DNA of 64,000 nt, from positions 4,836,001 through 4,900,000 of the forward strand of contig NC_086380.1 in NCBI RefSeq assembly GCF_036588685.1, given 5' to 3'. The notes under the pieces were generated by a model. It ran no database searches and was not told where the DNA came from. It saw only the letters and a program-made list of their open reading frames with translations. The number at the start of each line of letters is the position of its first letter. Within the stretch, counting starts at the first letter, position 1. The position numbers and the translations under genes were made by a program. Positions 13,247 through 59,467 of this stretch are shown here, piece after piece. This DNA is from Mytilus trossulus (Eukaryota).

Positions 13247-14751
13247 TTATTCGGTAATTAGGTATCCAGAAAATGTCGACCTATGATTTCCATAAATCTG
13301 TTCCCTACCACCAGCATGTTTGACATAAACTGTGTCACTCTTCTTTAATGCAACCACAACATTCAGAGTCCCAGTCGATAATTTAGTACCGAAAGCTCTG
13401 ACCAGTTTCTGATTATTCTTCCACAAATCGCAGTGTAACATGGTGGTATAATAAGACATAACCGTTGTTGAAATAGAGTAGAGTCCCGTTTTCGGCGCAG
13501 TAAAAACGCCTGTGTCCTGATTGTAAGCGGCACCCATATTTAACCATACTTTGTCAAATATCACAACTTCACTACTAGCAAGATTCTTAGATGATGTAAG
13601 CGATGCTGTAAAAGCTGGCCTTTCCTGTTCTTTTCCAGGTTCTGAAAATTAATTTTCAATGTAATATTCAATTTTCATAACACATGAAAAATAACCCGAA
13701 TACTGTCTGTATTGTCTTTATATTTATTGAAAGGGAAAATGATTTTCGAAACCAATACTTGTAACATATATTTGTATTGTCAGCATATTAGTAATTTAAA
13801 CACCATACAAATGACGTGGTGTGAACACCAATGAGACAACTTTCCGCCAGAGACCATATTATAAAGAATTATATTTAAGAAGCATAATATAATATAAATA
13901 TAATTCCATACAGTTGAACGTAGAGAATTAGAGTGAAATTATTTTCTCTTGTCTTTTCATGATGTATAGGTGTACTTATCGTGTGCTCAGTTTCCCGCCG
14001 AAACCGGGGTTTCGGTAATTCAACACGACAACGCCAAAGGAGCGGTTCTCCTCTTTAAATAACTTTGAAAATTTTAATTTATTCAATAAGTCTCCCTTTT
14101 TAGTTATTTATAAGCCGGACAATAAGATTGATAGGACTGGAGGTATATTTTTTTTGGTATTATGTTGTGTGAAGCATAATATATACAAATGTGATTTTGA
14201 AGGTAACATATTTAATAAACATAGCAGTGGCGTTGTCGTGTAGCTTTGCCCTTTAATTATGAGTTTTGTATTCTTCATAGTATGTTATTTTCTTTAAGTG
14301 TTTTTCAAAGGCATACTTTGTGAAGTTCAATATAGAATGAAGGTTGTTACAAGAGAACAATATCTTTTACTAAAGCGGTTCACACTTACATTCAGAACTC
14401 GAAATACATTTTCATGGTAGTTGATATTTTCTGTCACAAAAGTATATAAACTTATATATACATACCGTTTCCAATGTCAGCAATAACAGCCTGTTTTATC
14501 CGAGGAATCATCTGGTTCATGATATCTTCTACTTCCTTCTGAATCATCTGGTTCATGGTATCTTCTACTTCCTTCTGAATAGCGATCTTCAACACCTGGT
14601 TAAGTTTCGTGGTATCAAACAAAGCAACTAAAGGCATATTTTGAGTGTCCAGTAGTGGTATCACAGTTGAAGAGTTGTCACTATTTTGTCCTTTCGCGTA
14701 TTTCATAATCGTAATTACAAAAAGTAGAAACAAAATCCCTCTTAGTACCAT
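13247..14751 (-). CDS. C1q domain-containing secreted protein, g2 (226 aa; exon 1 14751-14466, exon 2 13641-13247)
   Basis: Same two-exon, phase-1 GT-AG structure. Exon 1 is 286 nt because of a 36-nt tandem duplication (IQKEVEDTMNQM/IQKEVEDIMNQM). Exon 2 is 395 nt with an intact gC1q domain. Confidence 0.93.
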
Positions 14752-17700
14752 TATTACAAGTTTTCTTTACTCCGACTGTTCAGTTAGGAACCTGACAAAA
14801 TTTCGGAAATTATCAAATGAGAAGTATTTATATGCATCGCTCACGTGGTTTATTAAAAAAAACTCACAACAAATAAATAAAACTGTCAAGAGTCTAAGAT
14901 TTTTTGTTTGCAAATTAAAGACCGGCAAATGGTCGCTGTCTTTCATAGTTTTTTTCTTATCAGATATCACAAGGAACTGTTAAAATTGGATAAGTATTTT
15001 GTTGAATGATTAATAATAACGTTATCATAGTTTTAAGCAAAACCGCCCACCTTGGTTGGAGCTCCTGTGGTCGTTTTAAAGTATATCACAGGTCACAAGA
15101 TGACTTTTAAGCAAATTTAAAAGTCTTCAAATTAATGCTTTGAACATGTTAAAAGGAAACAGATCGTCAGTTGAAATTAGATGCCAGGTTGCACGATCGC
15201 CCAACAAAGTTCGATGGTCTCGGGTACTTATTGGTCATGTTGGATCCACCAGGTTATTCACGAGATCTACACAGCTTTTGCTAATAGTCGTATGATCATT
15301 CCAAAACAATAGGGTGATGTGAAACCTCAAATTGAAAAAAAATTTTTTTATAACAAAATGGATAATTGTCCTGATTAATCTTACGAAAAATTACTTTTTC
15401 TGCAGACAATTATTTAATTTGTCCACATTTAGAAGAATTTAACTTTTTTTAGTTGCTTGCTTCTAGGAAGCAATTCGCCGACACATGTTCCGTATTCAAA
15501 AAGACTTAGCGTGACCCTCTCGGAAAAATCGGACGATTGCAAAAACATTACATATGGATATGTCACTGAAATAAACTATTATCTGATTGTGCATGTTAAA
15601 CACGTGCTCATTATCCATATTATAAACTTAGTCTTCTGTGCACGATTTTGTCATTTTTTACGCGAAAATATCATATAATCGTCATCTTTCTCTCCCTGTT
15701 TGTTATGAAGTTAAGATATGGAAGCTTATTAACTGTCGTTTTTTAAAACAGTATTTTACCGATTGTCATTATATAGTAAACAATCAACAAAGAAGTATAC
15801 ATGCATTTGTTCAAGAATTGGATAATCACAATTTTTACCACTCCCTCGTTTCATATGACTTTAAATGACAAGAGGAGTCAACATCGAGTTGGCTAGTTCT
15901 ACGCCATTATTGTCTTGAGGCATCTATAATCAGATTAAACATATTGATTTTGGTACTACTGAAGTCCGTTTTAAAGTTATGAAGGCTATGAAAAACACAT
16001 ATGACATCACAAATAGTGACATGGGATTTTATGAAAAGCTGAACAAAAAATACACAGGCTCATTGAAGACCGATGTGAAATATCAAATCAGGCCCCGCTT
16101 TTATTATAACATGTGAAGCCGGATATGCTTACTCTTCTGGAGCAACTGAGACCACCCTCGTTTTTGGTGGGGTTCGTGTTGCTTAGTCTTTAATTTTCTA
16201 TGTTGTACATTTATTTTGTGCAAATTAAGTGCCTGTTTGTCTAATTTTCTTGAACCATGGCGTTGTCAGTTTATTTCGACATTTGTAACTGGCTTAGATC
16301 AAAATTGATCTCACAATAGTAGAAAAAAAAATCATGGAGTAAAATTTCGAACGAAAAAGTTCCAGGTGGTTTTAATTTAGTTAAAATATAAAGACTCTGA
16401 CTCTAGAATTTGAAGCATGCAACGTGTTTACAGTTCAATTTTCGAATAATTTGCACTCCAAAGAACTAAAAGAGGGACGAAAGATACTAGAGGGACAAAC
16501 TCATAAATCGAAAATAAACTCACAACGCCATGTTTATACGCATCAGGTTCTGTCGACGTTTATCATAGAAATAGATCTATTTTTTTGACATTATCACTCC
16601 AACCATGCACACTATGTTTGTAAACAACAACCTGATGTTCTCCCGCCCTCAACCCAAACTTCTTGAGGAACTAATTTTGAGAGATTTCTATTGTAGATTT
16701 TAAGCTTGAGGGTTAATCTTACTTGCTCACTATTTAAATGATTTTGTTTACTAGTAGTTCTTTGTGACATTTTCCATTTGTAATCTGTCGACACCAGTAT
16801 TCAAGTCAAAACCATGGTTGTTTGAAAATATCATCGCATATATTTTGATAGCACAAAAATTAAAAGTAATCTAGCTGTAATTAATTAATAATTTATATCT
16901 TTATTGAATAATCAGATAGTATACACGGCATCATTGCTTAAAAGTTAACATGAGTCTTGACCACAATTCTATCAGTATTTTGTTTTAGATAATAAACACA
17001 ATTACATTTAGTATTGTACAGTTAAAAGATTTGTCTATAGTGTATTCGAACTATGGCTCATCAATTACACCAATAAGCAAAGTACTGAAGTACTGAACAT
17101 CTGATAACCACAAGTCTGTAGCTGAGGGACATAATCACAAGTGTCTCAGAAAATAATTCATTTCTATACTAAAAATAAGGTAAATGTACAGCGAGGGTTT
17201 TGACTGAGACAAGTTCGTGTGTGGATGATGAATAAATGACGGGAATTCAACCTAACCGTAATAACCATTATATTGTAGTCATTTAACCATTTGTGATCAG
17301 TATACTCTGGTTTGTTATTATATATATATTATATCAGTATTTGTATTATATTCATTTGCATATCATTCTATTCTACTATTTTAATGATAGTGCAGTGCAA
17401 GTGCATGGTGCACACTCTTCTGTAAGAATTCGTTTTTCTAATAGATTGGATTTGGAAAGGCATTCATTATTTCACAGTTTCATACCATTTATCTATGTTT
17501 TCGAAAAGTATTTTCACGAATATTTATTGATGAAATTAATGTATAACAACCGATAAGGCATTTTATTTTGCATTCAATAATATCCACGCAGTTATACGAA
17601 ATTTGTTCGGTTATCAGTCAAAATTCCAAGTCACGTCGTTCTAATTTGAAAATACAAATGGCATTGGTTACCTATTTATTCACCATAGGTTCCATGTTGA

Positions 17701-18545: not shown

Positions 18546-20034
18546 TTACTTGCTAATTAGGTATCCAGAAAATGTCGACCTATGTTCTCCAACAATTATT
18601 TCCGTACCACCGGCATGTTTAACAAAAACTTTGTCATTCATCTTCAATGCCATCACAACATTCAGAGTCCCAGTTGATAAATTATTACCGAAGGCCTGGA
18701 CCATTCTCTCATTATTTTTCCACAGAAAGCAGTGCAAATACTTGGCATAATAAGACATAACCGTTGTTGAAATAGAGTAAAGTCCCGTTTTTGGCGCAGT
18801 AAAAACTCCAGTGTCCTGACTGTAGACTCCACCAATGTTTAACCATACTTTGTCAAATACTACAACTTCATTACTAGCAAGACTCTTAGATGATGTAAGC
18901 GATGCTGTAAAGGCTGGCCTTTCCCTTTTTCGTCCAGGTTCTGAAAAATAATTGTCAATCTATTTTGTATACAGCTGTACAATAACCCAATACAGTCTAT
19001 ATTTTTTCTATTAAAAATTATACTTATCGAAAGTGAGAATAAGCCTTCACTTGAAATAAGTAACATGTAGACGAAACGCGCGTCTGGCGTACTAAATTAT
19101 AATCCTGGTACTTTTGATAACTATTTAAACCACTGGGTCGATGCCACTGCTGGTGGACGTTTCGTTCCCGAGGGTTTCACTAGCCCAGTAGTAACCACTT
19201 TGGTGTTGACCTGAATATCAATCATGTGGTCATTTTTATAGATGTCCTGTTTACAAAACTTTGAATTTTTTGACAAACTAAGGATTTTCTTATTCCAGAC
19301 ATAGATTACCTTAGCCGTATTTGGCACAACTTTTTGAAATTTTAGATCCTCAATGCTCTTCAACTTTGTACGTGTTTGGCCTCATAAAAATTACAATTTG
19401 AGCGTAACTGATGAGTCTAATGTACTCTCTGCATATCAGTAATATAAACATTAATACATGTGGTCAGGTATTCATATAAATGAGACAAAATTAAGAAGCA
19501 TAACATTATATAACAATATCTTTTACTTAAACGATTTACACATACACTCAGAACTCGTAGTGGCGGATCCAGAAGGGCGGGGTGGTTCCGGGGGATAAAA
19601 AAAACCTTTTTGGGGACGATCAATGCATTTGAATAGGGACATATGGTTTGACACCCACCCTTTTCTTCTGTGTTTTGAACCCTTTTTTTTTAAATGGTTG
19701 GATCCGTCCCCGACTCGAAATATATTGCCATGGCCGTAGTATATTTTCTGTCATAAAAGCTTCAGAAATACATCATATACATACCGTTTCCTATGTCTTT
19801 AATAACAGCCTGTTTTATCTGAGGAACCATCTCGTTCATGGTATCTTCTACTGTCTTCTGTATAGCGATCTTCAACACCTCGTTAAGTTTCGTGGTATCG
19901 AACAGAGCAACTAAAGGCATATTAAGATTGTCCAGTAGTGGTATCTCAGTAGAAGAGTTGTCACTTTTTTGTCCTTTCCCGTACTTCATAATCGTAATCA
20001 CAGAAAGTAGAAACAAAATCCTCCTTAGTACCAT
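18546..20034 (-). CDS. C1q domain-containing secreted protein, g3 (214 aa; exon 1 20034-19785, exon 2 18940-18546)
   Basis: ATG at 20034 is homologous to paralog starts. Donor G|GTATGT, acceptor ttttcAG. Exon 2 is open: EPGRKRERPAFTASL...WLNIGGVYSQDTGVFTAPKTGLY...STFSGYLISK*. Confidence 0.93.
19558..19712. mobile_element. 155-bp hAT-like MITE with 5-bp TSD (ACTCG) in g3 intron
   Basis: Ends TAGTGGCGGATCCA...TGGATCCGTCCCCG, with ACTCG at 19553-19557 and 19713-19717. The empty site with a single ACTCG is in the g2 intron (~14397). Same insertion in g6 (41707-41855), partial in g1 (~7770-7875) and g4 (~32530-32643). Confidence 0.8.
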
Positions 20035-20319: not shown

Positions 20320-21378
20320 ATTGTCGAGCCTGCAACTTTTGTTGCAGAAAGCTCGACATAGGGATAGTGATCCGGTGGCGGCGGCGGCGTTATCTAACTT
20401 CTTAAAAGCTTTATATTTTAGAAGGTAGAAGACCTGGATGCTTCATACTTTGTATATAGATGCCTCATGTTACGAACTTTCCGTCGGTCAAATGTACAAT
20501 GTCCTTGATCTCATTTTTATGGTTCAGTAACTACTTGGAAAAAAAGTTACGATTTTTTGTAATGTGAAATTCTCTCTTTAATATTATAAGTAATTGGATA
20601 ACTATATTTGTTGTTTGTCCTCATGCCCGTCAGACAGTTTTCACTTGACCTCATTTCATGGATCAGTGAACAAGGTGAAGTTTTGGTGGTCAAGTCAATA
20701 TCTCAGATACTATTAGCAATAGGTCTAGTATATTCGGTGTATGGAAGGACTGTAAGGTGTACATGTCTAACTGGCAAGTGTCATCTGACCTTGACCTCAT
20801 TTTCATGGTTCAGTGGTTATAGTTAAGTTTTTGTGTTTTGGTCTGTTTTTCTTATACTGTCTGCAATAGGTCTACTATATTTGGTGTATGGAATGATTGT
20901 AAGGTGTACATGTCTAGCTGACAGGTGTCATCTGACCTTGACTTCATTTTCATGGTTCAGTGGTCAAAGTTAAGTTTTTGAGATTTGGTCTATTTTTTTA
21001 ATACTTTATGCATTAGGTCAACTATATTTGGTGTATGAAAATGTTTTATGATCTATATGTCTGTTTAGCAAGTTTTATTTGACCTTGACCTTATTTTCAC
21101 GGTCCATTGCTAAGTGTTTGTGTTTTGGTCTGTTATTCTTAATTTATAAGCAATAAGTGAACTATATTTGTTGTATTGCAGAATTGTTAGCTGTACATGT
21201 CAACCTGGCATGGTTCATCTGACCTTGACCTCATTTTCATGGTTTATTGATCAATGTTGCGTTTTCTTGGTTAATGTTTAGTTTATGTGACAGTTGTAAT
21301 AAAGCTTTATATTTAGGTCTATCTACATAATATCAATGATTAGTAAAGAAGGCGAGACATTTCAGTGTGTACACTCTT
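20320..21378 (+). mobile_element. Non-autonomous Helentron/HINE-like element
   Basis: 5' hairpin TGTCGAGC...GCTCGACA, (GGC)n microsatellite, internal tandem repeats containing TGACCTTGACCTCATTTTCATGGTTCA, and insertion into a T-rich site that is empty in paralogs. Confidence 0.75.
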
Positions 21379-26570: not shown

Positions 26571-26787
26571 GCAAAAGTGTCGGACAAAAAGCAAAATAAT
26601 CGGACAAAAAGCAAAACGGACAAAAAGCAACGGACAAAAAGCAAAAGTGTCGGACAAAAAGCAAAATAATCGGACAAAAAGCAAAACGGACAAAAAGCAA
26701 CGGACAAAAAGCAAAAGTGTCGGACAAAAAGCAAAATTATCGGACAAAAAGCAAAAACGGACAAAAAGCGAATTGCGAACAAAAAGC
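26571..26787. repeat. Higher-order minisatellite (70-bp unit x ~3)
   Basis: Each 70-bp unit is four GCAA..CGGACAAAAA subunits of 20+20+16+14 nt. Units start at 26571, 26641 and 26711. Confidence 0.92.
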
Positions 26788-27309
26788 ACCGTATCATACG
26801 GTGTTACACTATAATATACACATCTAGATTATCAATATTTTTGGGACGAATTCTATATTGAGTATAGAATCCCACATCTTACTAAGCAACATCAAACATT
26901 TTGTTTTAATTTGTAGACCAGTACAAAATCTTTGTTTCAATGTGAAAGTCTTTTCATGAAAACAAGAATATATAAGATTTAATAATTTGAGATGAGTTTA
27001 AACAGTTTTTAAAGATACTTAACAGTTAATGGAATAAAAGAGACGTGACTTGTACCACATACAGACATTTTGCGGAATAAAATGTCTAATCCAGGCAATT
27101 ACGAATTAATATGATGTACACATGTAGGGGTTGGAATAAATGTGTCCTCTGCATGGGTACAAACCTATGGTGGATTAGAAACGACTTAACAAGGCAAAAA
27201 GGGGGGTGTATACATCGTTTTTGGAGTTATTAACGAGGCATTTAACCATGAAAGTTAAAGGTCAAATAATTGGACCTTGAGATCAACGGTAAATGTCATA
27301 ATGATATTG

Positions 27310-31848: not shown

Positions 31849-34064
31849 TTACTCGGAAATGAGGTATCCAGAAAATGTCGACCTTTGATCTCCATAAATG
31901 TATTCCGAATCACTGTATAAATGTTTGACATAAACTGTGTCATTCATCTTCAATGCCATCACAACATTCAGAGTTCCAGTCGATAAATCATTACCGAAAG
32001 CCCTGACCAGTTTCTCATTATTCTTCCACAAATCGCAGTGTAAATAGCTGTTATAGTTAGACATCACCGTTGTTGAAATAGAGTAGAGTCCCATTTTAGG
32101 AGCAGTAAAAAGTCCAGTCTCGTGATCGTAAGCTCTACCCATGTTTAACCATACTTTGTCAAATATTACAACTCCGTTACCACCGAAATTTTGGGTGGAT
32201 GTAAGTGATGCTGTAAAAGCTGGCCTTTCCTTAACTCGTCCAGGTTCTGAAAAATAATTTTCAATGCCTTTTGCATACAGCTTGAAAAATAACCAAATAC
32301 AGTCTATATTGTCTATATGAAATTATACTAATTGAAAGTAAAAATGGGCCTTCACTTAAGTTACATATATTTGTGCCCTCTGCATTTAGTTTTATAAACA
32401 TAAATACATGTGGTAAGGTCATCATATTAATGAGACAACTCTCCGCCAGAGACCATATGATAGAGAAGTTAAATTAAGAAGCATAACATAACAACATCTC
32501 TTACTAAAGCGATTTACACATACATTTAGAGGTTGGAATCATTTTTTTTTGGTGGTCACTTCATTTCAATAGGGACATATGGTAGGAATCCCCCGTTCGC
32601 CTTGGTTGGGACCCTCCTTTTTTAATGGCTGGTTCCGCCTCTGACTCGAAAACATTGTCATGGCCGCATAATATTTTTTTAGTCATAAAAGCGTAGGACT
32701 CAAATCTATGGTGGGTTCCAAATCTATGGCAGATTTCTAATCTATGGTAAATGTGACGTCATGCCATCCCACATCTATGGCAAGTTTTGTACTTTCCTAA
32801 TCTATGGCGGATTTATGTTGTTTCCAAATCTATTGCAAATTTTGTGCAAATGGAAAACAATGCAGTTCATTTTCGACCTATAACTTGTCTTGAGCAAGTC
32901 GAAAAATACGACAACTGGAGCATGTCTACAAACATTTGTGGAATAAACATTCCATAATGTTAAAATGATGTGTTCTGTAAAAAATAAACATTTTTCATGA
33001 AACCTGTGCATGGTACCTTTTTTTAGCCAATTCATTAAACCAACTAATAAGACCTCTAACAAACAAGAAGGCCGCTTTTTATAAAAAAAAAATATAAAAA
33101 AGTAACAAATAAAAATAGACAGTTTGAATTTTCAAATAATATTTATTTCAGCGATATCGTTAATACATCTTTTTTTTATTTGATGACGATTTAAATCAAA
33201 TTTGTATCCCGTAATTTTATCTATTATTTTATAAACTTTGCCAGCCGTAGACAGTAAACTACTACTAACTAGATATAGGAAGATGTGGAATGAGTGCCAA
33301 TGAGACAACTCTCCATCCAAGTTACTATTTATAAAAGTAAACCAGTATAGGTCCAGGTACGGCCTTCAACAAGGAGCCTTGGCTCACACCAAACAGCAAG
33401 CTATAAAAATCCTTTTTTCTAAAATATGCGGTACTGAAAATAGAGGCGCCATAATTCATCGCGGGATTCGGCCAGTACAGCACATTTGGTCCATCTTTAG
33501 AATAGTAGGTCACATCTTCCTTTAAACCACCCAAAAAATGTTGTCATGGAAATATCTTCATCTTGAATGGTGTTCAAATTTATGGGTTCCGCCATCGTTA
33601 GCGGCATCGAAGATCTAATATGGCGTTATATTCAATTGTGACGTTATACGGTACCCTTTCCCCGAGATCTGCCATAGATTTGGAGTAAACAAAAATCTGC
33701 CATAGATTTGAGTTGTTTGGCGTTTGTAACGTCACATTTGCCATAGATTAGGAATCTGCCATAAATTTGGAACCCGCCATAGATATGAGTCCTATATATA
33801 TACTTCATACATACCGTATCCAATGTCGACAATAACAGCCTGTTTTATCCGAGGAATCATCTCGTTCATGGTATCTTCTACTGTCTTCTTAATAGCGGCC
33901 CCCAACACCTCGTTAAGTTTTGTGGTATCGAACAGTGCAACTAAAGGCATATTTTGATTGTCCAGTAGTGGTATCTCAGTAGAAGAGTTGTCACTATTTT
34001 GTCCTTTCGCGTATTTCATAATCGTAATTACTAAAAGTTGAAACAAAATCCTTCTTAGTACCAT
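31849..34064 (-). CDS. C1q domain-containing secreted protein, g4 (215 aa; exon 1 34064-33815, exon 2 32246-31849)
   Basis: Canonical splice sites. Exon 2 is 398 nt (one extra codon in KHLYSDSEY) and reads EPGRVKERPAFTASLTSTQNFGGNGVVIFDKVWLNMG...STFSGYLISE*. Confidence 0.93.
32696..33792. mobile_element. MITE with ~65-bp TIRs and TA TSD in g4 intron
   Basis: TA|GGACTCAAATCTATGGTGGGTTCCAAATCTATGGCAGATT... and ...AATCTGCCATAAATTTGGAACCCGCCATAGATATGAGTCC|TA. Absent from paralogous introns. Carries a nested short repeat at ~33270-33408. Confidence 0.85.
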
Positions 34065-36661: not shown

Positions 36662-37569
36662 TTACTCGGTAATTAGGTATCCGGAAAATGTCGACCTTTG
36701 ATCTCCAAAAATTCTTTCCGAACCAGCGGCGTGTTTGACATAAACTGTGTCACTCTTCTTTAATACCATCACAACATTCAGAGTCCCAGTCGAAAAATCA
36801 TTACCGAAAGCCAGGACCATTCTCTCATTATTTTTCCACAGAAAGCAGTGTAAATGGCTGTTATGATGAGACATAACCGTTGTTGAAATAGAGTAGAGTC
36901 CCGTTTTGGGCGCAGTAAAAACTCCAGTGTCGTTATCATAAGCTCCACTCATGTTTAACCATACTTTGTCAAATATAATAACTTCATATCCAGCAAGATA
37001 CTTATGTGATGTAAGCGATGCTGTAAAAGCTGGCCTTTCATTTTCTCGTCCAGGTTCTGAAAAATAATGCAATGTGAACGCAGCTTGAAAAATAATCCTA
37101 ACAGACTATATTCAATTGGTCTTTATGACATTATGTTAATTGAAAGGAAAAAGATACATTTTGATAGAGAAGTAAAAAAAAAGAAGCATTTAATAATATA
37201 ACAATATATCTTTATTATCACAAATTTTACGCATACGTTCAGAACTCAAAAAACATTGTCAGGTGAATTTTTTTTTATTGATTTTTTTAAAAGCTGCTGA
37301 CATACATATACTTTTTACATACCGTATCCAATGTCGTTAATAACAGCCTGTTTTATCCGAGGAATAATCTCGTTCATGATATCTACTGTCTTCTTAATAG
37401 CGGCCCTCAACACCTCGTTAAGTTTTGTGGTATCGAACAGAGCAACTAAAGGCATATTTAGATTGTCCAGTAGTGGTATCTCAGTAGAAGAGTTGTCACT
37501 ATTTTGTCCTTTCGCGTATTTCATAATCGTAATTACTAAAAATTGAAGCAAAATCCCTCTTAGTACCAT
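36662..37569 (-). CDS. C1q domain-containing secreted protein, g5 (213 aa; exon 1 37569-37323, exon 2 37056-36662)
   Basis: 266-nt GT-AG intron. Exon 1 has an in-frame 3-nt deletion (TVDIMNE). gC1q exon is intact. Confidence 0.93.
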
Positions 37570-40500: not shown

Positions 40501-40685
40501 GGTCATTCACTAAACAAATGCATATATATATATATATTTGAAATAATATAGAAAGGTACTAGCATTTGGAAATATGAAGTGAACATGAGTATGACATTAT
40601 CTATACATAACGTGTGTTTTTTCGACTGACTTAATATCATTTCTCATTTCCAGATCAAATTATTCTAAAAGTTATTTTTGCTGGT

Positions 40686-42160
40686 TTATTCGGTAATAAG
40701 GTATCCAGAAAATGTCGACCTTTGATCTCCATAAATTCTTTCCGAACCAGTGTGATGTTTTACATAAACTGTGTCATTTAATTTCAATGCCATCACAACA
40801 TTTAGAGTCCCTGTTGATAAATCATTACCGAAAGCCAGGACTACTTTCTCATTATTTTTCCACAGATTGCAGTGCAAGTAGCTGTTATGATAAGCCATAA
40901 CCGTTGTTGAAATAGAGTAAAGTCCCGTTTTCGGCGCAGTAAAAACTCCAGTGTCCTGACTGTAGACTTCACCCATGTTTAACCATATTTTGTCAAATAC
41001 TACAACTTCATTAATAGCAAGACTCTTAGTTAGCGTAAGCGATGCTGTAAAGGCTGGCCTTTCCCTTTTTCGTCCAGGTTCTAAAAAATAATTGTCAATC
41101 TATTTTATATACAGCTGTACAATTATAACCCAATACAGTCTATATTTTTTCTATTAAAAATTATACTTAATTATCGAAAGTGAGAATAAGCCTTCACTTG
41201 AAATAAGTAACATGTAGACGAAACGCGCGGCAGGCGTACTAAATTATAATCCTGGTACTTTTGATAACTATTTAAACCACTGGGTCGATGCCACTGCTGG
41301 TGGACGTTTCGTCCCCGAGGGTTTCACTAGCCCAGTAGTAACCACTTCGGTGTTGACCTGAATATCAATCATGTGGTCTCTTTTATAGATGTCCTGTTTA
41401 CAAAATTTTGAATTTTTCGACAAACTAAGGATTTTCTTATTCCAGACATAGATTATACCTTAGCCGTATTTGGCACAACTTTTTGGAATTTTGGATCCTC
41501 AATGCTCTTCAACTTTGTACGTGTTTGGCCTTATAAAAATTACAATTTGAGCGTAACTGATGAGTCTAATGTACTCTCTGCATATCAGTAATATAAACAT
41601 TAATACATGTGGTCAGGTATTCATATAAATGAGACAAAATTAAGAAGCATAACATTATATAACAATATCTTTTACTAAAACGATTTACACACACACTCAG
41701 AATTCGTAGTGGCGGATCCAGAAGGGCGGGGTGGTTCCGGGGGATAAAAACCCCTTTTTGGGGACGATCAATGCATTTGAATAGGGACATATGGTTTGAC
41801 CCCCCTTTTCTCCTGTGTTTTGACCTCCTTTTTAAAATGGTTGGATCCGTCCCCGACTCGAAATATATTGCCATGGCCGTAGTAACATTTCTGTCATAAA
41901 AGCTACATACCGTATCCAATGTCTTCAATAACAGCCTGTTTTATCCGAGGAATCATCTCGTTTATGGCATCTTCTACTGACTTCTTAATAGCTACCTTCA
42001 ACACCTGGTTAAGTTTCGTGGTATCGAACAGAGCAACTAAAGGCATATTTAGATTGTCCAGTAGTGGTATCTCAGTAGAAGAGTTGTCACTATTTTGTCC
42101 TTTCGCGTATTTCATAATCGTAATTACTAAAAATTGAAGCAAAATCCCTCTTAGTACCAT
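40686..42160 (-). CDS. C1q domain-containing secreted protein, g6 (214 aa; exon 1 42160-41911, exon 2 41080-40686)
   Basis: Closest paralog of g1. Donor G|GTATGT, acceptor tttttAG, open frame through STFSGYLITE*. Confidence 0.93.
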
Positions 42161-45316: not shown

Positions 45317-48300
45317 TATTGAGGTTTATTGTTGTTGTATAATTTTAAATCATATGCATCATTTAAATTATATGTTTACCTATAACACCCCTTCAGTCGA
45401 AATGGAGTCTTCCATATTATCGTTTCGAGTTGTCTCCCTTCTGGAAGTATTTTCCGTCAACGAAATACACTACGACTCGTCTAGAAAAATAACTTGTTAG
45501 ATGTCGATAAACGTCTTATTATATTAAGAACGATCTCAATTTAAACAAAGGAGTGTGTACGGAAAGGAGTCATGCCCACGGACCCAAAAAAATAATATTT
45601 AAAGCGTTAGAAATGGGGTTCCTCCTATAATTAATGATGAAATACCTTCCTCACTCTCATTGACTGCTGTGGAAAGTAAACTTAGAATTGATAGTACAAA
45701 AAATAAAACACAATAAGTACATTGCTCATACACTTGTATCTGGGATTGGCTATTTTTAAAGTTGAGTAACTATTCAGATTATTACATTTTGCATGTGCAG
45801 TTGAATGTCTTGAATAAGTTTTGAAAATAATACTATCCAGCTGTACCAGGGCTGCCAAAAATGCGTCAGACTCACGCATGCTCATGCTTTTTTTGAGGCA
45901 GTATCCTTTGATCTATTTTTTTCCTCTTTGATATTTTCAATTTTGGCCAAAATTCATGCATTTGCTAAATGAAAAGTTGTCATAACTGCTATACATGTGT
46001 CAATGAAAACTATGGCAATCGTATCCTTCAGACAGTCTGATCTTTGATTACGATTTTCAAGTTAAGAAAAAAAAATCTGTTCAAATAAAACTTGAGAAAG
46101 CTTTGTTTCTAGCATGCTATAATATATATAACTGGTTTAAATGTTGAAATATATAAGTTTAATGAGTCCCAAAGAACTGCTTTTGTTATTTCCATTAAAA
46201 AAAACATATTTTACTGAAATGTTGTTTGAATACGTGGTACCAGACTTTTATTCATTATTTTGTTCATAGATTAGGCTGTAAGTTATCTCGTTTGAATTGT
46301 TTTATATTGTCAATTCGGGGCCTTTTATAACTAACTATGCGGTATGATATTTGCTCCTTGTTGAAGTCCGTACGGTGACGTATATATTTTTTTGTAGTTG
46401 TTAATTTCTGTGTCATTTTGGTCTCTTGTAAATAATTGTCTCATTGGCAATCATACCAAATCTTTTTTATATTTTATATTTCCTTTTTATTACCAAAATG
46501 TTTGAACTATGAGTTGCAATCTTTCATTTGAAATACAAAGCATACATATAGTTGAGTTATTGTCATGTACAAATGTATATGTATTCAGTAATGTACAGCT
46601 AAGTGTCCCTGTGGGGATTTAAAGACACACCATATATCATAGTATTTAATGAATAACCAATCACACTCATTGACAAAGTGTTCAATAATTATATGGTTTA
46701 TAAAGAATGTAAAAAACTGAGACAAATGTAAAATTAATATTGTACTTTTAAAGGGCGAACGGCAATGGTAGCATAGTCATACGCACATCTTCAATTGTAA
46801 TTTGTAATAAACACAGAAATCAAATGAAACTAATTCTATGTGCACAAGGATATGCAGAAAAAGTGACGATATAGTATATTGGACAAATATCGAGAACAAT
46901 ACTGCTGAAATTCAGTGATGGTTCAATGGCACTTCTCATTATCTATCAATCAGCCATTACACGTGATCAGCGACAGATGCACATGCATGTACGTGCATTT
47001 TGTTTACATGAAATCGAACCTAAGATAATCAGTAAGGTATTTATAGAACAGAACTATATATAGCTGATTTGACGATGTTTCTCGTCATTATAAATTGAAA
47101 TTGAAGCTGCCACACAGTTATACAAATTCAGATGATTAATTCATCACAAACTATAATCATTGAAATCGATTTATGAAATAGAAGAATTAAAGAAGGCATT
47201 AAATATATTTTGGCTGTGTCACCAAATCAACGTAAATGAGTGAATTCGTAACAAATATGTTGTACGTGCTTTGAATTTATCTAGGAATACCATTCTCACA
47301 TTAATTATTTGTTTATGTTAACTTTGATTGCGACATCGTTATTAGCTATCATTAACTGTAGAAATAAACAAAGATATAAAAAAAAAAACTTTGTTAGAAA
47401 TCTTTTATTTATTACTCAATAGATATAATAAAATTATATGTCGTTCCCTAAAAAATGCATATATATTTTGTTTTGAAACAATATAAATAGGTACTAGCAT
47501 TTGGAAATTTTCAGTGAACATGAGTATGACATTTTCTATACATAACGTGTGTTTTGCCGAATTCATTTCTTTTTTTCCAGATCAAATTCTTCTAAAGGTT
47601 TTTACTGGTTTATTCGGTAATTAGGTATCCAGAAAATGTCGACCTATGATTTCCATAAATCTGTTCCCTACCACCAGCATGTTTGACATAAACTGTGTCA
47701 CTCTTCTTTAATGCAACCACAACATTCAGAGTCCCAGTCGATAATTTAGTACCGAAAGCTCTGACCAGTTTCTGATTATTCTTCCACAAATCGCAGTGTA
47801 ACATGGTGGTATAATAAGACATAACCGTTGTTGAAATAGAGTAGAGTCCCGTTTTCGGCGCAGTAAAAACGCCTGTGTCCTGATTGTAAGCGGCACCCAT
47901 ATTTAACCATACTTTGTCAAATATCACAACTTCACTACTAGCAAGATTCTTAGATGATGTAAGCGATGCTGTAAAAGCTGGCCTTTCCTGTTCTTTTCCA
48001 GGTTCTGAAAACTAATTTTCAATGTAATATTCAATTTTTATAACACATGAAAAATAACCCGAATACTGTCTATATTGTCTTTATATTTATTGAAAGGGAA
48101 AATGATTTTCGAAACCAATACTTGTTACATATATTTGTATTGTCTCAGCATATTAGTAATTTAAACACCATACAAATGACGTGGTGCGAACACCAATGAG
48201 ACAACTCTCCGCCAGAGACCATATTATAAAGAATTATATTTAAGAAGCATAATATAATATAAATATAATTTCATACAGTTGAACGTAGAGAATTAGAGTG

Positions 48301-48741
48301 AAATTATTTTCTCTTGACTTTTCATGATGTATAGGTGTACCTATCGTGTGGTCAGTTTCCCGCCGAAACCGGGGTTTCGGTCATTCAGCACGACAACGTC
48401 AAAGGAGCGGTTTTCCTCATTTAATAACTTTGAACATTTTAATTTATTCAATAAGTCTCCCTTTTTAGTTATTTATAAGCCGGACAATAAGATTGATAGG
48501 ACTGGATGTTGTTTTTTTGTATTATGTTGTGTGAAGTATAATATATACAAATGTGATTTTGAATGTTCATAGGTAACATACTTAATAAACATAGCAGCGG
48601 CGTTGTCGTGTAGCTTTGCACTTTATTATGAGTTTTGTATTCTTCATACTTTTATGGTATGCTATTTTCTTTAAGTGTTTTTCAAAGGCGTAACTTATTA
48701 AAGTTCAATACAGAATGAAGGTTGTTACAAGAGAACAATAT

Positions 48742-49080
48742 ACAATTATGGCCTGTTGAAAATGTAAATATCCAAAATTGTCAACACGAGAAGGTTATTT
48801 CAGTGAGGGCGCAGCCCGAAGTGAAATAACTTTTAAGGGTTGACAATTTTGGATATTTATCGATTCTAAAGGGCCACAATTGTTTTAATTTACCGAACTT
48901 ACAGTGGAAGGGCCTTTTGTACACTTACTGTAAATATTATATTTTTACATAAACAAACACAAGCTGACGTTTGAAAAAAAAAGTTGTGTTTTAGAATTTC
49001 TCGAATGTACAACAAAGGTAGAATCATTTTGTAAAATATTGATGGCCCTGTGAGAGATATCATCTGCTGCTGGCACTCTA
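48742..49080. mobile_element. Insertion with ~140-bp terminal palindrome in g7 intron (Crypton-like non-autonomous?)
   Basis: TATCCAAAATTGTCAAC..GTTATTTCA..TGAAATAAC..GTTGACAATTTTGGATA hairpin at 48742-48883. Absent from the g2 intron. Family assignment is tentative. Confidence 0.55.
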
Positions 49081-49140
49081 TACACTTACATTCAGTACTC
49101 GAAAACATTTTCATGGCAGTTATTATTTTCTGTCACAAAA

Positions 49141-49830
49141 TAAAATTGAGAATGGAAATGGGGAATGTGTCAAAGAGACAACAACCCGACCAAATAAAAA
49201 ACAACAGCAGAAGGTCACCAACAGGTCTTCAATGTAGCGAGAAATTCCCGCACCCGGAGGCGTCCTTCAGCTGGCCCCTAAACAAATATATACTAGTTCA
49301 GTGATAATGAACGCCATTCTAATTTCCAAATTGTACACAAGAAACTAATATAAAAATAATACAAGACTAACAAAGGCCAGAGGCTCCTGACTTGGGACAG
49401 GCGCAAAAATGCGGCGGGGTTAAACATGTTTGTGAGATCTCAACCCTCCCCCTATACCTCTAACCAATGTAGAAAAATAAACGCATAACAATACGCACAT
49501 TAAAATTCAGTTCAAGAGAAGTCCGAGTCTGATGTCAGAAGATGTAACCAAAGAAAATAAACAAAATGACAATAATACATAAATAACAACAGACTACTAG
49601 CAGTTAACTGACATGCCAGCTCCAGACTTCAATTAAACTGACTGAAAGATTATGATTTCATCATATGAACATCAGGCACAATCCTTCCCGTTAGGGGTTT
49701 AGTATCATACCATCATAAAATATATGAGAAGAACATAACCCGTGTCATGCCAACAACTGTTTTTAGAATAAATGTCTTTAGTTCCGACGCAAAGACCTTA
49801 TCAGTGACTCAATATTAACGCCAAACTATG
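49141..49830. repeat. Dispersed repeat inserted in g7 intron
   Basis: Homologous to 27310-27735 and 51133-51290. Absent from the g2 intron and ends ~25 nt from the donor site. Confidence 0.8.
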
Positions 49831-50644
49831 CACTGTATATGAACTTTTTCATACCGTTTCCAATGTCAGCAATAACAGCCTGTTTTATCCGAGGAATCAT
49901 CTGGTTCATGATATCTTTTACTTCCTTCTGAATAGCGATCGTCAACACCTGGTTAAGTTTCGTGGTATTAAACAAAGCAACTAAAGGTATATTTTGAAGA
50001 ATTGTCACTATTTTGTCCTTTCGCGTATTTCATAATCGTAATTAAAAAATGTAGAAACAAAATCCCTCTTAGTACCATTATTACAAGTTTAACAATTGTT
50101 TTCTTCACTCCGACTGTGTATTTAAAAACCTGCAAGAACTCATATGTTTCGAAAATTACTAATGCAAATATTTATATGCATTGCTTAACAATTGTTTTCT
50201 TTACTCAACTTTTTTAGTAAGGAACCTGACAAAATTCCGGCAACAAATGAGAATTATTTATATGCATCGCTCACGTGGTTTATTAAAAAAAACCACAACA
50301 AATAAAAAAAAAACTGTCAAGAGTCTAAGATTTTTTGTTTGCAAATTAAAGACCGGCAAATGGTCGCTGTCTTTCGTTTTGTTTTTTTATTTTGCCATGT
50401 GATTATGGACTTTCCAAATTGAGTTTCCTCTCAGTTCAGTATTTTTGTGATTTTACTTTTTTCAAAGTTTTTTTCTTATCAGATATCACAGGGAACTGTT
50501 TAAATTGGATAAATATTTTGTTAAAAGATTTAAATTAACGTTAACACAGTTTGAAGTAAAATCGCCCACCCTGGTTGGAGCTCCTGTGGTCGCTTTAAAA
50601 TATATCACAGGTCACATGTTAAAAGGTAACAGATCGTCAGTTTG

Positions 50645-53965: not shown

Positions 53966-55441
53966 ATTTCCAATTATACCACATCTTTTTTTATATTTAT
54001 TGAAATGTCAGATAGCATACATGGCATCCTAGCTTAAAAGTTAACATGACCACAATATCATCAGTACTATTTTGTTTTAGAATAATAAACACAATTACAT
54101 TAGGAATCGTTCAGTTAGAAGTCTTGTATATAGTGTATTCGAACTATGCCTACTCAATTACACTAGCAATCAAAGTACTGAAGTACTGACCGCAAGTTCT
54201 TGTGGATGGTCACAAGCACAAGTGTCTCAGAAAATGAATCACATCTTTAAACTTGAAAGTAAGTACATAGATATATATCTTTTCTGAGATCGTGTGTGGA
54301 TGATGAATAAATGGCAGGAAATTCAACATCACCGTAATACCAGTGTCTCAGAAAATAAATCACATCTCTATACCTAAAAGTAAGGTTAAGGAACATAGAT
54401 ATATATTTTTTTCTGAGATCGTGTGTTGATGATGATTACATGACAAGGAATTCAACCTCGCCGTAATAACTATTATATTGTAGGGATATAATCATTTGTG
54501 ATCAGTATATTTTGGTTTGTTATTATATATTATACTAGGACACACCCGTGATATCGCTGGTCCGTGACTAAATTAGAGTATATAACTATGCGTATTATCT
54601 GATAAAGTCATGCGGATTATAAGATGCACAGTTTTCTCTGCTTCCAAAATCTTTTTGTTTGAACCCTTCTACCTAGAACTTATCAGTTATTGGTAATGTT
54701 AATTTCCAATTATACCACATCTTTTTTTATATTTATTGAAATGTCAGATAGCATACATGGCATCCTAGCTTAAAAGTTAACATGACTACAATATCATCAG
54801 TACTATTTTGTTTTAGAATAATAAACACAATTACATTAGGAATCGTTCAGTTAGAAGTCTTGTATATAGTGTATTCGAACTATGCCTACTCAATTACACT
54901 AGCAATCAAAGTACTGAAGTACTGACCGCAAGTTCTTGTGGATGGTCACAAGCACAAGTGTCTCAGAAAATGAATCACATCTTTAAACTTGAAAGTAAGT
55001 ACATAGATATATATCTTTTCTGAGATCGTGTGTGGATGATGAATAAATGGCAGGAAATTCAACATCACCGTAATACCAGTGTCTCAGAAAATAAATCACA
55101 TCTCTATACCTAAAAGTAAGGTTAAGGAACATAGATATATATTTTTTTCTGAGATCGTGTGTTGATGATGATTACATGACAAGGAATTCAACCTCGCCGT
55201 AATAACTATTATATTGTAGGGATATAATCATTTGTGATCAGTATATTTTGGTTTGTTATTATATATTATACTAGGACACACCCGTGATATCGCTGGTCCG
55301 TGACTAAATTAGAGTATATAACTATGCGTATTATCTGATAAAGTCATGCGGATTATAAGATGCACAGTTTTCTCTGCTTCCAAAATCTTTTTGTTTGAAC
55401 CCTTCTACCTAGAACTTATCAGTTATTGGTAATGTTAATTT
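53966..55441. repeat. 736-bp tandem duplication (2 copies, no differences seen)
   Basis: TTCCAATTATACCACATC at ~53968 and ~54704; CTAGGACACACCCGTG at 54535 and 55271 (period 736). Confidence 0.92.
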
Positions 55442-56148: not shown

Positions 56149-56157
56149 CTGAATATA

Positions 56158-57035
56158 AATAAACTCATCATAGATACCAGGACTAAATTTAGTATATACG
56201 CAAGACGCGTTTCGTCTACAAAAGACTCATAAGTGAATCTCGAATCCAAAAAAGTTAAAAAGGCCAAATAAAGTACGAAGTTGAAGAGTATTGAGAACCA
56301 AAATTCCTAATGTGTTGCCAAATACAGCTAAGGTAATCAATGCCTGAGGTAGAAAAGCCTTAGTATTTCAAAAAATGCCAAAATTTGTAAACAGTAAATT
56401 TATAAATATAACCGTATCAATGACATTTCATGTCAGCACAAAAAATGCTGACTACTGGACTTGTGATACCCTCGGGGGGGGGGGGGGGGAATAAATCTCC
56501 ACCAGCAGTGGCATCGACCTAGTGGTTGTAAATAAACTCATCATAGATACCAGGACTAAATTTAGTATATACGCCAGACGCGTTTCGTCTACAAAAAAAT
56601 TATCAGTGACGCTCAGTCCAAAAAAGTTAAAAAGGCCAAATAAAGTACGAAGTTGAAGAGCATTGAAAACCAAAATTCCTAAAAGTGTTGCCAAATACAG
56701 CTAAGGTAATCTATGCCTGGATAGAGAAGCCTTAGTATTTCAAAAAAATCAAAAATGTGTAAACAGTAAATTTATAAATATAACCATATCAATGACAATT
56801 CATGTCAGCACAAAAAGTGCTGACTACTGGGCTTGTGATACCCTTGGGGAAATAAATCTCCACCAGCAGTGGCATTGACCCAGTGGTTGTAAATAAACTC
56901 ATCATAGATACCAGGACTAAATTTAGTATATACGCCAGACGCGTTTCGTCTACAAACGACTTATCAATGACGCTCGATCCAAAAAAGTTAAAAAGGCCAA
57001 ATAAAGTACGAAGTTGAAGAGCATTGAGAACCAAA
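56158..57035. repeat. Tandem array (~2.4 copies, 361-373 bp) of the dispersed ~370-bp repeat, inverted orientation
   Basis: AAACTCATCATAGATACCAGGACTAAATTTAG starts at 56161, 56534 and 56895. Confidence 0.88.
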
Positions 57036-57177
57036 ATGTAATATAGTGGACAAATATTGAGAACAAAACTTTAAGATTCAGTGATGATTCAATGGCTCTT
57101 CTCTTTATCTACCAATCAGCCATTTACACGTGATCAGCAACAAATGCACATGCATGTTTACATGAAAACAAGCCTTA

Positions 57178-58030: not shown

Positions 58031-58554
58031 TAAGATAATCAGTCAGGTATTTATAGAGTAGAACAATATGTAGCTAATTTGACAGTGTTTCTCATCATTA
58101 TAAATAAAAATTTAAGCTCCGAGCAGACTACTTAACTAATGCAGACGATTACTAGTAATTAATCGCAAACTATAATAACAGCAATCGATTAATAAAATAG
58201 AAAAATTAAAGGCATAAATCACAAAACAATATAAATAACACATGAATGAGTGAACTTGTAACACATATGTTGCACTTTGTATGTAGCTAGGAATACGATG
58301 CTCACTCTAATTATTTGTTTATGTTAACTTTGATTGCGACGTCATAATTTGTTTAATGGGTACGCCAAAACACTTCCATAGCCACTATCAAGAATTGCCG
58401 ACATAAATGAAGACATAAAAAAATCAGAATTAAATTTCAGGAAAATGCTTTATTTATTACTAGATGAATATATTAAATTTTCTCAGTCTCCTACTAAACA
58501 CCTCCAAAACATTTCTCATTTCCAGATCAATTTCTTCTAAAAGATTTTACAGGT

Positions 58555-59467
58555 TTACTCGGTAATTAGATATCCGGAAAATGTCGATCTATGATCTCCA
58601 TAAATGTATTCCTTAGCATTAATATGTTTGACATAAACTGTGTCATTCTTCTTTAATGCCACCACAACATTCAGAGTCCCAGTCGATAATTTAGTACCGA
58701 AAGCTCTGACCAGTTTCTCATTATTCTTCCACAAATCGCAGTGTAAATGACTGCTGAGATAAGACATAACCGTTGTTGAAATAGAGTAGAGTCCCGCTTT
58801 CAGCGCAGTAAAAACTCCAGTTTTCTTATCGTAAGCTCCACCCATATTTAGCCATATTTTGTCAAATATAACAACTTCGTATCGACCAAGATTTCTGTGT
58901 GATGTAAGTGATGCTGTAAAAGCTGGTCTTTCTTTTTCTCGTCCTGGTTCTGTAAAAAATAATTTCCAATGTAGTTTGCTTAACACATGGAAAATAACCC
59001 AATACAAACTTTAATGCTAAATGAAATTATGTTAACTGAGAGGGAAAACATACCCTTTGATAGAGAAATCAAATAAAGCAGCATTAAAACAATATCTCTT
59101 ATTTAAAAAACAAATTTTGACGCATACGTTCAGAATTCAAAATACATTGTCATGCGAATTTTCTTTGATCGATTTTTTAAAAAAGCTACTGAAATACATG
59201 AACTTTATACATACCGTATCCAATGTCAGCAAGAACAGCCTGTTTTATCCGAGGAATCATCTCGTTCATGGTATCTTCTACTGTCTTCTTTATAGCGGCC
59301 CTCAATACCTCGTTAAGTTTCGTGGTATCGAACATAGCAACTAAAGGCATATTTAGATTGTCCAGTAGTGGTATCTCAGTAGAGGAGTTGTTAGGTTTTT
59401 GTCCTTTCCCGTATTTGATAATAATTGTTACGACAAAAATTAATAATACAATCGCTTTAAGTGTCAT
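58555..59467 (-). CDS. C1q domain-containing secreted protein, g8 (215 aa; exon 1 59467-59215, exon 2 58949-58555)
   Basis: Divergent signal peptide MTLKAIVLLIFVVTIIIKYGKG, 265-nt GT-AG intron, intact gC1q exon. Confidence 0.92.

What the first reader, a model, noticed from the sequence alone, without database searches (positions are those of the whole stretch)
13247..58949. Patchwork sharing of exon-2 tracts conflicts with the intron-transposon tree: ectopic gene conversion shuffling loops
Seen: intronic markers give a nested grouping. The ACTCG-TSD MITE is in g1, g3, g4 and g6 only, and the 370-bp repeat is in g1, g3 and g6 only. Coding tracts cut across this. g4 shares CTGACCAGTTTCTCATTATTCTTCCACAAATCGCAGTG (DLWKNNEKLVR, including synonymous sites) with g8 and nearly with g2/g7, then switches to the g1-type NDLSTGTLNVVMALK. 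g3 shares a ~37-nt tract GGACCATTCTCTCATTATTTTTCCACAGAAAGCAGTG (HCFLWKNNERMV) with g5. g2 and g8 share AFGTKLSTGTLNVVVALKK. Inference: short conversion tracts anchored in the invariant strands recombine loop cassettes between paralogs, giving a combinatorial germline repertoire. This is the best candidate for an undescribed system in the window.
Basis: partly seen in the sequence, partly recalled or inferred. Interest (0 to 1): 0.75.

Follow-up and report, generated by a model that had tools for sequence, protein, structure and literature searches.

The report
Recombining tandem C1q gene array

Summary
The window holds eight two-exon C1q-domain genes (g1-g8, minus strand; g7 frameshifted) and a decayed ninth exon. 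Both quoted tracts exist exactly, and exon 2 is recombinant: PHI p 0.0004-0.009; one breakpoint near nt 201-213 saves 11 parsimony steps, against at most 6 in 800 clonal simulations. The loop-cassette reading is not supported. None of the three named short tracts is globally significant (0.27-1.0). The better-supported blocks are longer: 123 nt of strands D-G (g2/g7 with g8), intron plus 185 nt (g3 with g1/g6), and about 1.2 kb that makes g2 and g7 exon 2 identical. The three hypervariable segments show 7 of 7 distinct haplotypes, no excess synonymous divergence and no special tree (p 0.15-0.23). Mosaics also occur in exon 1 and in 4 of 7 non-coding alignments, so the intron tree is one local tree among several. 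Best reading: meiotic unequal crossing-over and ectopic conversion that swap or homogenise framework blocks, with loops diverging by point substitution. This is known from plant R genes, MHC and Sp185/333; my searches found no report of conversion for bivalve C1qDC. Part of the g2/g7 signal could be an assembly effect. Interest 0.25.

The parts
6161..8177 (-). g1: exon 1 7928-8177 (predicted signal peptide and coiled coil), intron, exon 2 6161-6555 (C1q domain)
   Evidence: (PF00386, E 6e-22)
13247..14751 (-). g2: exon 1 14466-14751 (with a 36-nt internal duplication), exon 2 13247-13641
   Evidence: (PF00386, E 8e-23)
18546..20034 (-). g3: exon 1 19785-20034, exon 2 18546-18940; g4-type upstream, g1/g6-type intron and 5' half of exon 2
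31849..34064 (-). g4: exon 1 33815-34064, exon 2 31849-32246 (one extra codon in the G-H segment)
36662..37569 (-). g5: exon 1 37323-37569, exon 2 36662-37056; chimera with g1/g6-type upstream and first 143 coding nt, g8-type intron and 3' flank
40686..42160 (-). g6: exon 1 41911-42160, exon 2 40686-41080; g1-type gene with g2/g7-type 3' flank
47610..50078 (-). g7: exon 1 49855-50078 with a 26-nt frameshifting deletion (likely pseudogene); exon 2 47610-48004 identical to g2
58555..59467 (-). g8: exon 1 59215-59467, exon 2 58555-58949
61670..62050 (-). g9: decayed exon-2 paralogue, about 67% identical, with an in-frame stop and frameshifts; approximate ends
12484..13648 (-). g2/g7 homogenised zone: 5 differences in 1165 nt, with a 475-nt identical run 13174-13648 (g7 counterpart about 47537-48011); flanks differ by about 4.4%
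   Evidence: permutation p 2e-4
13316..13438 (-). g2 copy of the strand D-G block shared with g8 (exon-2 nt 204-326); g7 copy at 47679-47801
58624..58746 (-). g8 copy of the strand D-G block: 3 mismatches to g2 in 123 nt, against 53 in the other 272 nt
   Evidence: pair p 0.0044, global 0.062; triplet p 0.0007
18756..19764 (-). g3 block shared with g6/g1: intron (27 of 818 differ from g6) plus exon-2 nt 1-185 (9 of 185), ending at the C-D loop
   Evidence: global p 0.027 with g6, 0.037 with g1
   Evidence: nominal significance only
   Evidence: not significant
19553..19717 (.). MITE-like insertion with both ACTCG copies (g3); relatives at the same intron site in g6 (about 41705-41860), g4 (about 32530-32648) and g1 (about 7768-7877)
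19066..19424 (.). ~370-bp intron repeat in g3; also g1 6681-7091 and g6 41213-41573; free tandem copies at 56156-57037

Best explanation
This is a tandem array of eight two-exon C1q-domain genes whose copies are mosaics of one another, likely because misaligned copies recombine at meiosis by unequal crossing-over and ectopic gene conversion, while the hypervariable loops likely diverge by point substitution under relaxed or diversifying selection. Shown: gene anatomy, mosaic signal in exon 2 and outside it, chimeric g3, g5 and g6, the g2/g7 identical zone, private loops. Inferred: crossovers inside genes made the g5 and g6 chimeras (the g1|g2 spacer recurs at g5|g6 and g6|g7); conversion tracts of roughly 100 nt to 1.2 kb copied framework blocks; tracts appear to end at the C-D and G-H loops because heterology stops strand exchange, or selection removes conversions that erase a loop, or detection simply ends there. 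The effect is new pairings of an N-terminal half, a D-G block and private loops, as a by-product of ordinary recombination with no dedicated machinery.
For: Recombination in exon 2 (7 sequences; g7 dropped as identical to g2): PHI p 0.0004-0.003, codon-block p 0.001-0.009; one-breakpoint parsimony gain 11 against a permutation mean of 3-4, p 0.001-0.003; 0 of 800 clonal simulations reached it, maximum 6; framework sites alone give p 0.005. Not confined to exon 2: one-breakpoint p<0.05 in 4 of 7 purely non-coding alignments and in upstream+exon 1 (p 0.005). g5 exon 1 has 0 differences from g1/g6 in the first 143 nt and 12 after; its 3' flank differs from g8 at 34 of 505. The g6 distal 3' block differs from g1 at 76 of 530 but from g2 at 26 of 545. 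g2/g7: 0 of 395 in exon 2, 31 of 718 in the intron. Loops: residues 14-24, 62-67 and 109-119 have 7 of 7 distinct nucleotide haplotypes; pN/pS is 1.11 in four loop segments and 0.35 elsewhere; G-H pN 0.32, pS 0.10. Synonymous difference among same-amino-acid codons is 47 of 363 in loops and 266 of 1642 in framework. g1/g6 differ at 12 of 99 loop nt and 7 of 296 framework nt, p 3.5e-4, with an intergenic baseline of 47 of 952. One contig of run X2 (DNA?, a different organism label) spans g4 31870-32163 with 5 differences, where the nearest paralogue has 39, so the g4 pattern exists outside this assembly. The same process is described for oyster C1qDC arrays (unequal crossing-over, episodic positive selection; PMC6835236) and for duplicates under conversion plus selection (PMC3924837).
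Against: Only the g3 with g6/g1 block passes a global GENECONV-like test in exon 2, and only at one of three penalty settings. No triplet of 210 passes Bonferroni (best 0.0005, threshold 0.00024, close to the permutation floor). Synonymous-only PHI is borderline (p 0.04-0.06, 14 sites). Exon 1 alone (p 0.077), the proximal upstream block (0.09), the 7-gene 3' block (0.13) and the distal upstream block (1.0, tree-like) are not significant; gappy non-coding alignments can mimic signal. Loop pN does not exceed pS significantly (bootstrap interval spans 0), so positive selection is not shown. Three detected tract ends fall at the C-D loop, which is non-random-looking and untested. A site-wise null favoured a separate loop tree (p 0.026). 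Conversion and double crossover cannot be told apart from one haplotype.
Confidence: 0.8

Rival explanations
1. One reading: short conversion tracts anchored in invariant strands swap loop cassettes between paralogues, as a dedicated combinatorial germline system.
For: Exon 2 is recombinant. The small E-F loop motif is shared by g2/g7 and g8, and g1/g6 share theirs. Loop sites prefer a different best tree from framework sites (gain 5, p 0.026 under a site-wise null). The best-breakpoint plateau (nt 123-216) includes the invariant C strand.
Against: 0 shared haplotypes among 7 genes in the three hypervariable segments. Contiguity-aware nulls give p 0.15 (10 of 67 shifts) and 0.23. Loop sites alone show no breakpoint signal (p 0.27). 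Shared tracts are mostly predicted strands. Exchanges also occur in exon 1 and non-coding DNA. Any homology-dependent recombination, and the spacing of informative sites, place breakpoints in conserved stretches (established knowledge; PMC3924818 passages).
Confidence: 0.05
2. Micro-conversion from donors outside the window writes the hypervariable loops: short multi-nucleotide patches are copied in from other C1qDC genes, while long tracts homogenise the framework.
For: g1 and g6 differ at 5 sites within 8 nt at the start of the G-H segment, all non-synonymous, on a framework that differs by 7 of 296. Bivalve genomes hold hundreds of C1qDC genes that could be donors (PMC6835236).
Against: No donor for the g6 patch among the eight genes. 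Loops show no excess synonymous divergence, which import from distant donors would bring; G-H pS is 0.10. Donors outside the window were not searched.
Confidence: 0.08
3. Part of the pattern is an assembly effect: g1-g2 and g6-g7 are two haplotypes placed in tandem, or polishing collapsed g7 exon 2 onto g2.
For: g1-g2 and g6-g7 are collinear at 94-95% over about 5 kb. In run X1 two contigs upstream of g5 and g6 have depth 44 and 49, two in the g5 3' flank 79 and 81, and one across the shared g2/g7 zone 86, not double; the tool warns that depth is no copy number. No listed piece spans the stretch.
Against: The g6 3' flank is g2-type, not g1-type, which a simple allele of g1 would not be. An X1 contig matches 37010-37456 (g5 exon 2 edge, intron, part of exon 1) with 0 differences; an X19 contig covers g5 exon 1 across the switch with 4 differences and 3 gap positions; an X2 contig matches g4. 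The exon-2 tests exclude g7.
Confidence: 0.12
4. No recombination: the patchwork is recurrent mutation at hypervariable sites plus retained ancestral states.
For: Adequate for the g3/g5 tract (3 exclusive non-synonymous sites, p 0.4-0.56) and for the g4 'switch'.
Against: Clonal simulations with site rates kept in place never reach the observed breakpoint gain or the low consistency index 0.67 (0 of 400 in each of two settings). The {g2,g4,g8} split, 3 of whose 6 clustered sites are synonymous, conflicts with the MITE group under any root. It cannot give the g2/g7 zone or the g5 and g6 switches.
Confidence: 0.03

Closest known systems
Bivalve secreted C1q-like type II (C1qDC) tandem clusters, Crassostrea virginica (PMC6835236; seen: abstract, introduction, sections 2.1 start and 2.4, term passages; supplements not read)
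   Same: Two exons, N-terminal extension before a C1q domain, tandem near-identical paralogues, unequal crossing-over, conserved scaffold with a few fast sites.
   Different: That paper holds no occurrence of 'conversion', 'recombination' or 'concerted'; intragenic mosaics and a homogenised exon are shown here. The organism of this window was not established.
Duplicated genes under conversion plus selection: peaks of divergence (opsins), MHC, self-incompatibility, Ig and R-gene haplotype shuffling, pseudogenes kept by conversion (PMC3924837; seen: term passages)
   Same: Chimeric haplotypes from conversion; low divergence in converted blocks with peaks at selected sites; a broken copy (g7) carrying an intact converted exon.
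   Different: Nothing mechanistic; here it rests on one haplotype and eight genes, without polymorphism data.
Plant NBS-LRR type I clusters, e.g. coffee SH3 (PMC3113787; seen: term passages)
   Same: Tandem immune receptors, chimeric paralogues, listed tracts of 200-1258 nt, fast-evolving exposed residues.
   Different: Different protein family and kingdom; positive selection is significant there and not shown here.
Sea urchin Sp185/333 (SpTransformer) cluster (PMC3091723; seen: term passages)
   Same: Small two-exon clustered invertebrate immune genes with mosaic second exons; duplication and conversion proposed.
   Different: Sp185/333 genes share discrete elements and are flanked by microsatellites proposed to bound exchange. 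Here loops are not shared, and tandem-repeat search shows no microsatellite pair flanking each gene.
Biomphalaria FREP somatic diversification (PMC3313920; seen: term passages)
   Same: Molluscan lectin-like immune family with gene conversion invoked.
   Different: FREP diversification is somatic. The mosaics here are in assembled genomic DNA, and the g4 pattern recurs in another run. Somatic change was not testable.

Membership tests
C1q-domain-containing proteins | C-terminal globular C1q domain | tested here: met
   PF00386 over the full profile for 2 of 2 exons scanned; g2 model pLDDT 82.5, best Foldseek hits are C1q domains, TM 0.84; the other exons align at 74-80% to g2
Bivalve sC1q-like type II | Signal peptide plus coiled coil before the C1q domain, no collagen, two exons | tested here: inconclusive
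   Two exons, a hydrophobic N-terminus and no Gly-X-Y run are seen directly; signal peptide and coiled coil judged by eye, no predictor run
Bivalve sC1q-like type II | Bivalve origin and lectin or opsonin activity | not tested
   Organism names are coded and no homologue search outside the window was run; activity needs a bench assay
Tandem gene family under unequal crossing-over and ectopic conversion | Significant recombination among paralogues | tested here: met
Tandem gene family under unequal crossing-over and ectopic conversion | Tracts cross coding and non-coding DNA, of varied length, some homogenising | tested here: met
Tandem gene family under unequal crossing-over and ectopic conversion | Diversifying selection at exposed sites | tested here: inconclusive
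   loop pN/pS 1.11, bootstrap interval spans 0; G-H segment 0.32/0.10; g1/g6 loop excess p 3.5e-4; segments were partly chosen for their variability
Tandem gene family under unequal crossing-over and ectopic conversion | Non-reciprocal transfer (conversion rather than double crossover) and shared polymorphism | not testable with these tools
   needs phased haplotypes of many animals
   7 of 7 distinct haplotypes in three hypervariable segments; only the 5-residue E-F segment is shared, inside a 123-nt strand block
   framework sites alone are recombinant (p 0.005), loop sites alone are not (p 0.27); loop partition p 0.15-0.23
   gain plateau nt 123-216, best 206-213; too few events to test
Somatic diversification (FREP-like) | Transcripts or somatic DNA with mosaics absent from the germline | not testable with these tools
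   only assembled contigs were available, and they drop rare variants

The most novel reading that the evidence does not exclude
Bivalve C1q lectins are built combinatorially: conversion swaps whole structural blocks (the N-terminal half up to the C-D loop; the D-G block with its outward-facing residues and E-F loop), selection keeps the C-D and G-H loops out of long tracts, micro-conversion from the genome's many other C1qDC genes rewrites those loops, and the broken g7 serves as a sequence donor. That would be an MHC-like germline diversity generator for a 130-residue lectin domain.
Probability: 0.1. Interest if true: 0.6.

Novelty: new member of a known kind. Interest (0 to 1): 0.25.

Why it matters
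It gives a worked case of intragenic exchange in a likely bivalve C1qDC array. My four searches found no paper reporting conversion for this family, and the main paper on its expansion does not mention it. In practice, trees and positive-selection scans of such arrays need recombination-aware methods, intron insertions are not safe lineage markers, and the private C-D and G-H segments are the first candidates for ligand specificity. The mechanism itself is textbook.

Tried and rejected
No whole genome is held, and no search for homologues outside the window was run, so outgroup paralogues and outside donors are untested. The decayed g9 exon was tried as outgroup; at about 67% identity it misaligns across strands D-F and cannot polarise the tracts. 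GENECONV-like test without mismatches: 0 of 21 pairs globally significant; with penalty 1, 2 of 21; with penalty 2, 0 of 21. Split-clustering test: 0 of 7 groups pass Bonferroni. The loop-versus-framework partition looked significant under a site-wise null and was rejected under two contiguity-aware nulls. Sequencing runs: no RNA holder listed; X19 is only guessed to be RNA, so expression is not claimed. I laid 4 of 24 listed runs on 31500-50400 only (g1, g2, g3 and g8 not covered); repeats swamped the tables, only 40 of 752 difference rows were shown, and nothing could be read on polymorphic tracts or on the g7 deletion. Earlier findings of the scan: nothing by place, words or sequence. No long non-C1q ORF such as a recombinase or transposase: the longest other stop-to-stop frame is 179 aa (those frames were not scanned against Pfam). 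Strand letters A-H are the recalled C1q convention laid on the DSSP elements; DSSP puts short strands (18-20, 113-116) inside two segments I call loops, and 'apex' or 'outward-facing' position was not measured on the model.

Full report
ANATOMY. The window is 64 kb at about 33% GC. It holds eight genes on the minus strand, each with two exons and a GT-AG intron of 265-1850 nt. Exon 2 encodes a complete C1q domain (PF00386 in 2 of 2 exons scanned; g2 model pLDDT 82.5, best structural matches Caprin-2 C1q, C1QL2/3 and Cbln1). Exon 1 gives a hydrophobic N-terminus and a likely coiled coil, judged by eye. This matches the secreted C1q-like type II class that dominates oyster C1qDC clusters (PMC6835236). 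Bivalve origin is an inference; no call named the organism. g7 has a 26-nt deletion in exon 1. A decayed ninth exon lies near 61.7-62.0 kb.

THE OBSERVATION. Both quoted tracts are present exactly. The 370-bp repeat is in the g1, g3 and g6 introns. MITE-derived sequence sits at one site in g1, g3, g4 and g6, with both ACTCG copies only in g3. The split {g2,g4,g8} in the D-E hairpin conflicts with the MITE group whatever the root, so retained ancestry cannot explain it. Taken one by one the named tracts are weak: g3/g5 pair p 0.40-0.56; g4/g8 pair p 0.022-0.040, global 0.27-0.44; the g4 switch to a 'g1 type' has triplet p 0.69-0.89, and g4 is no closer to g1 (7 differences) than to g5 (6) or g3 (7) over nt 245-320.

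RECOMBINATION IS REAL. On 7 distinct exon-2 sequences (g7 dropped because it equals g2) with 68 informative sites, PHI gives p 0.0004-0.003, or 0.001-0.009 with codons kept together; synonymous sites alone give 0.04-0.06. One breakpoint near nt 201-213, at the end of the C-D loop, lowers parsimony from 126 to 115 steps (permutation p 0.001-0.003). None of 800 clonal simulations with site rates kept in place exceeded 6. The 5' half groups g1, g3, g6 and g5, g8, as the introns do; the 3' half groups g3 with g5 and g2 with g8. The better-supported blocks are long: g3 with g6/g1 over the intron (27 of 818 differ) and nt 1-185 (9 of 185; global p 0.027 and 0.037), and g2/g7 with g8 over nt 204-326 (3 of 123, against 53 of 272 outside; global p 0.062). 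These pass or approach significance at only one of three penalty settings, and no triplet of 210 passes Bonferroni.

IT IS NOT LOOP SHUFFLING. On the model, the quoted tracts are strands D and E with an invariant two-residue turn, and strands E-F with the short E-F loop (strand letters recalled). The three hypervariable segments (residues 14-24, 62-67, 109-119) have 7 of 7 distinct haplotypes in protein and DNA. Framework sites alone are recombinant (p 0.005); loop sites alone are not (p 0.27). A loop-versus-framework split saved 5 steps, p 0.026 against random sites, but p 0.15 against circular shifts and 0.23 against random contiguous blocks. Loops change amino acids often (48% of codon pairs against 15%) with no extra synonymous change (47 of 363 against 266 of 1642). 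pN/pS is 1.11 in loops and 0.35 elsewhere; the excess over 1 is not significant. The g2/g8 block lies between the C-D loop (9 of 18 nt differ) and the G-H segment (9 of 33). This resembles the peaks of divergence expected where selection resists conversion (PMC3924837 passages), though detection bias gives the same look.

THE WHOLE UNIT IS MOSAIC. g5 equals g1/g6 for the first 143 coding nt (0 differences, then 12), has a g1-type upstream region (28 of 644) and a g8-type intron and 3' flank (34 of 505). g6 is g1-like with a g2/g7-type 3' block (26 of 545, against 76 of 530 to g1). g3 has a g4-type upstream region with the 147-bp array, exon 1 differing from g6 at 25 of 250, and a g6-type intron. 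The g1|g2 spacer recurs at g6|g7 (94-95%) and, shortened, at g5|g6; crossovers inside genes would give this pattern (inference). g2 and g7 differ by about 4.4% in intron and distal flank but at 0 of 395 nt in exon 2 and 5 of 1165 across 12484-13648 (p 2e-4). As g7 is frameshifted, purifying selection is an unlikely cause; recent homogenising conversion is the likely one. The breakpoint test was significant in 4 of 7 purely non-coding alignments (overlapping data, three regions) and in upstream plus exon 1; it was not in exon 1 alone, the proximal upstream block, the 7-gene 3' block or the distal upstream block. Assigning the block at 22752-23294 to g4 is my inference. The intron tree is therefore one local tree, not the yardstick.

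OUTSIDE EVIDENCE. Four of 24 listed runs were laid on 31500-50400. One X2 contig (different organism label, depth 7.7) covers g4 31870-32163 with 5 differences; the nearest paralogue differs at 39, and turning the D-E tract into the g1, g3, g5 or g6 type takes 7-8 changes. So the g4 pattern is present in another sample, likely germline and old. X19 contigs match g6 exon 2 (221 nt, 0 differences) and g5 exon 1 across its switch (4 differences, 3 gap positions). X1 may be the source sample and is not independent. Its contig depths (44-49 at two places, 79-86 at three, including the shared g2/g7 zone) leave open that parts of the array are hemizygous or that g2 and g7 are haplotypes; the tool warns that depth is no copy number. 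No homologue search outside the window was run, so outgroups and outside donors remain open.

COMPARISON AND VERDICT. It works like other tandem immune clusters with unequal crossing-over, conversion and fast exposed sites: plant NBS-LRR (PMC3113787 passages), MHC and R genes (PMC3924837 passages), Sp185/333 (PMC3091723 passages). Experimental mean tracts of 200-500 bp, and the warning that overlapping events look like short tracts, are in PMC3924818 (passages). It fails the tests for a loop-cassette system; somatic FREP-like change (PMC3313920 passages) was not testable. Searches for conversion in bivalve C1qDC gave one review holding the terms once each (PMC11674123, listing only); PMC6835236 has no 'conversion' or 'recombination' in its main text. 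No supplements were read, and subscription papers are not covered. Verdict: observation partly confirmed, interpretation partly supported, new member of a known kind, interest 0.25. The boldest reading left, block-wise combinatorics with loop micro-conversion from outside donors, has probability about 0.1 and would rate 0.6.

Noticed in passing
window 23300-31400: About 8 kb separates the proximal 3' flank of g4 from a g2/g6/g7-type distal 3' block at 22324-23294. It holds short tandem arrays (25988-26788, 29809-30045) and no long ORF; likely an insertion, or the block is left from a lost gene.
   Followed up: partly
window 53966-55441: A 740-bp near-perfect tandem duplication (99.9% identical): very recent, or an assembly duplication.
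   Followed up: no
window 32694-33794 (g4 intron): An insertion of about 1.1 kb with ~128-nt inverted arms (80%) and short internal repeats; the g7 intron has another with ~143-nt inverted arms. Likely non-autonomous DNA transposons, high-copy in the laid runs.
   Followed up: partly
window 44963-45320 and 63244-63622: A ~360-bp element with 54-nt inverted arms, in opposite orientations; present in the g6|g7 spacer and absent from the matching g1|g2 spacer.
   Followed up: no
window 14505-14580: 36-nt tandem duplication in g2 exon 1 adds 12 residues to the likely coiled coil; absent from g7.
   Followed up: no
window 20707-21244 and 34739-35383: 147-bp tandem arrays upstream of g3 and g4 only; high-copy in the laid runs.
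   Followed up: partly
window 5455-5847, minus strand: A 131-aa stop-to-stop frame with a Cys/His pattern recalling the C-terminus of non-LTR retroelement proteins (recalled, not scanned).
   Followed up: no
window 40740-40760 (g6) against 6215-6235 (g1): Five non-synonymous differences within 8 nt at the start of the G-H segment, between genes whose framework is 97.6% identical; no donor in the window.
   Followed up: partly
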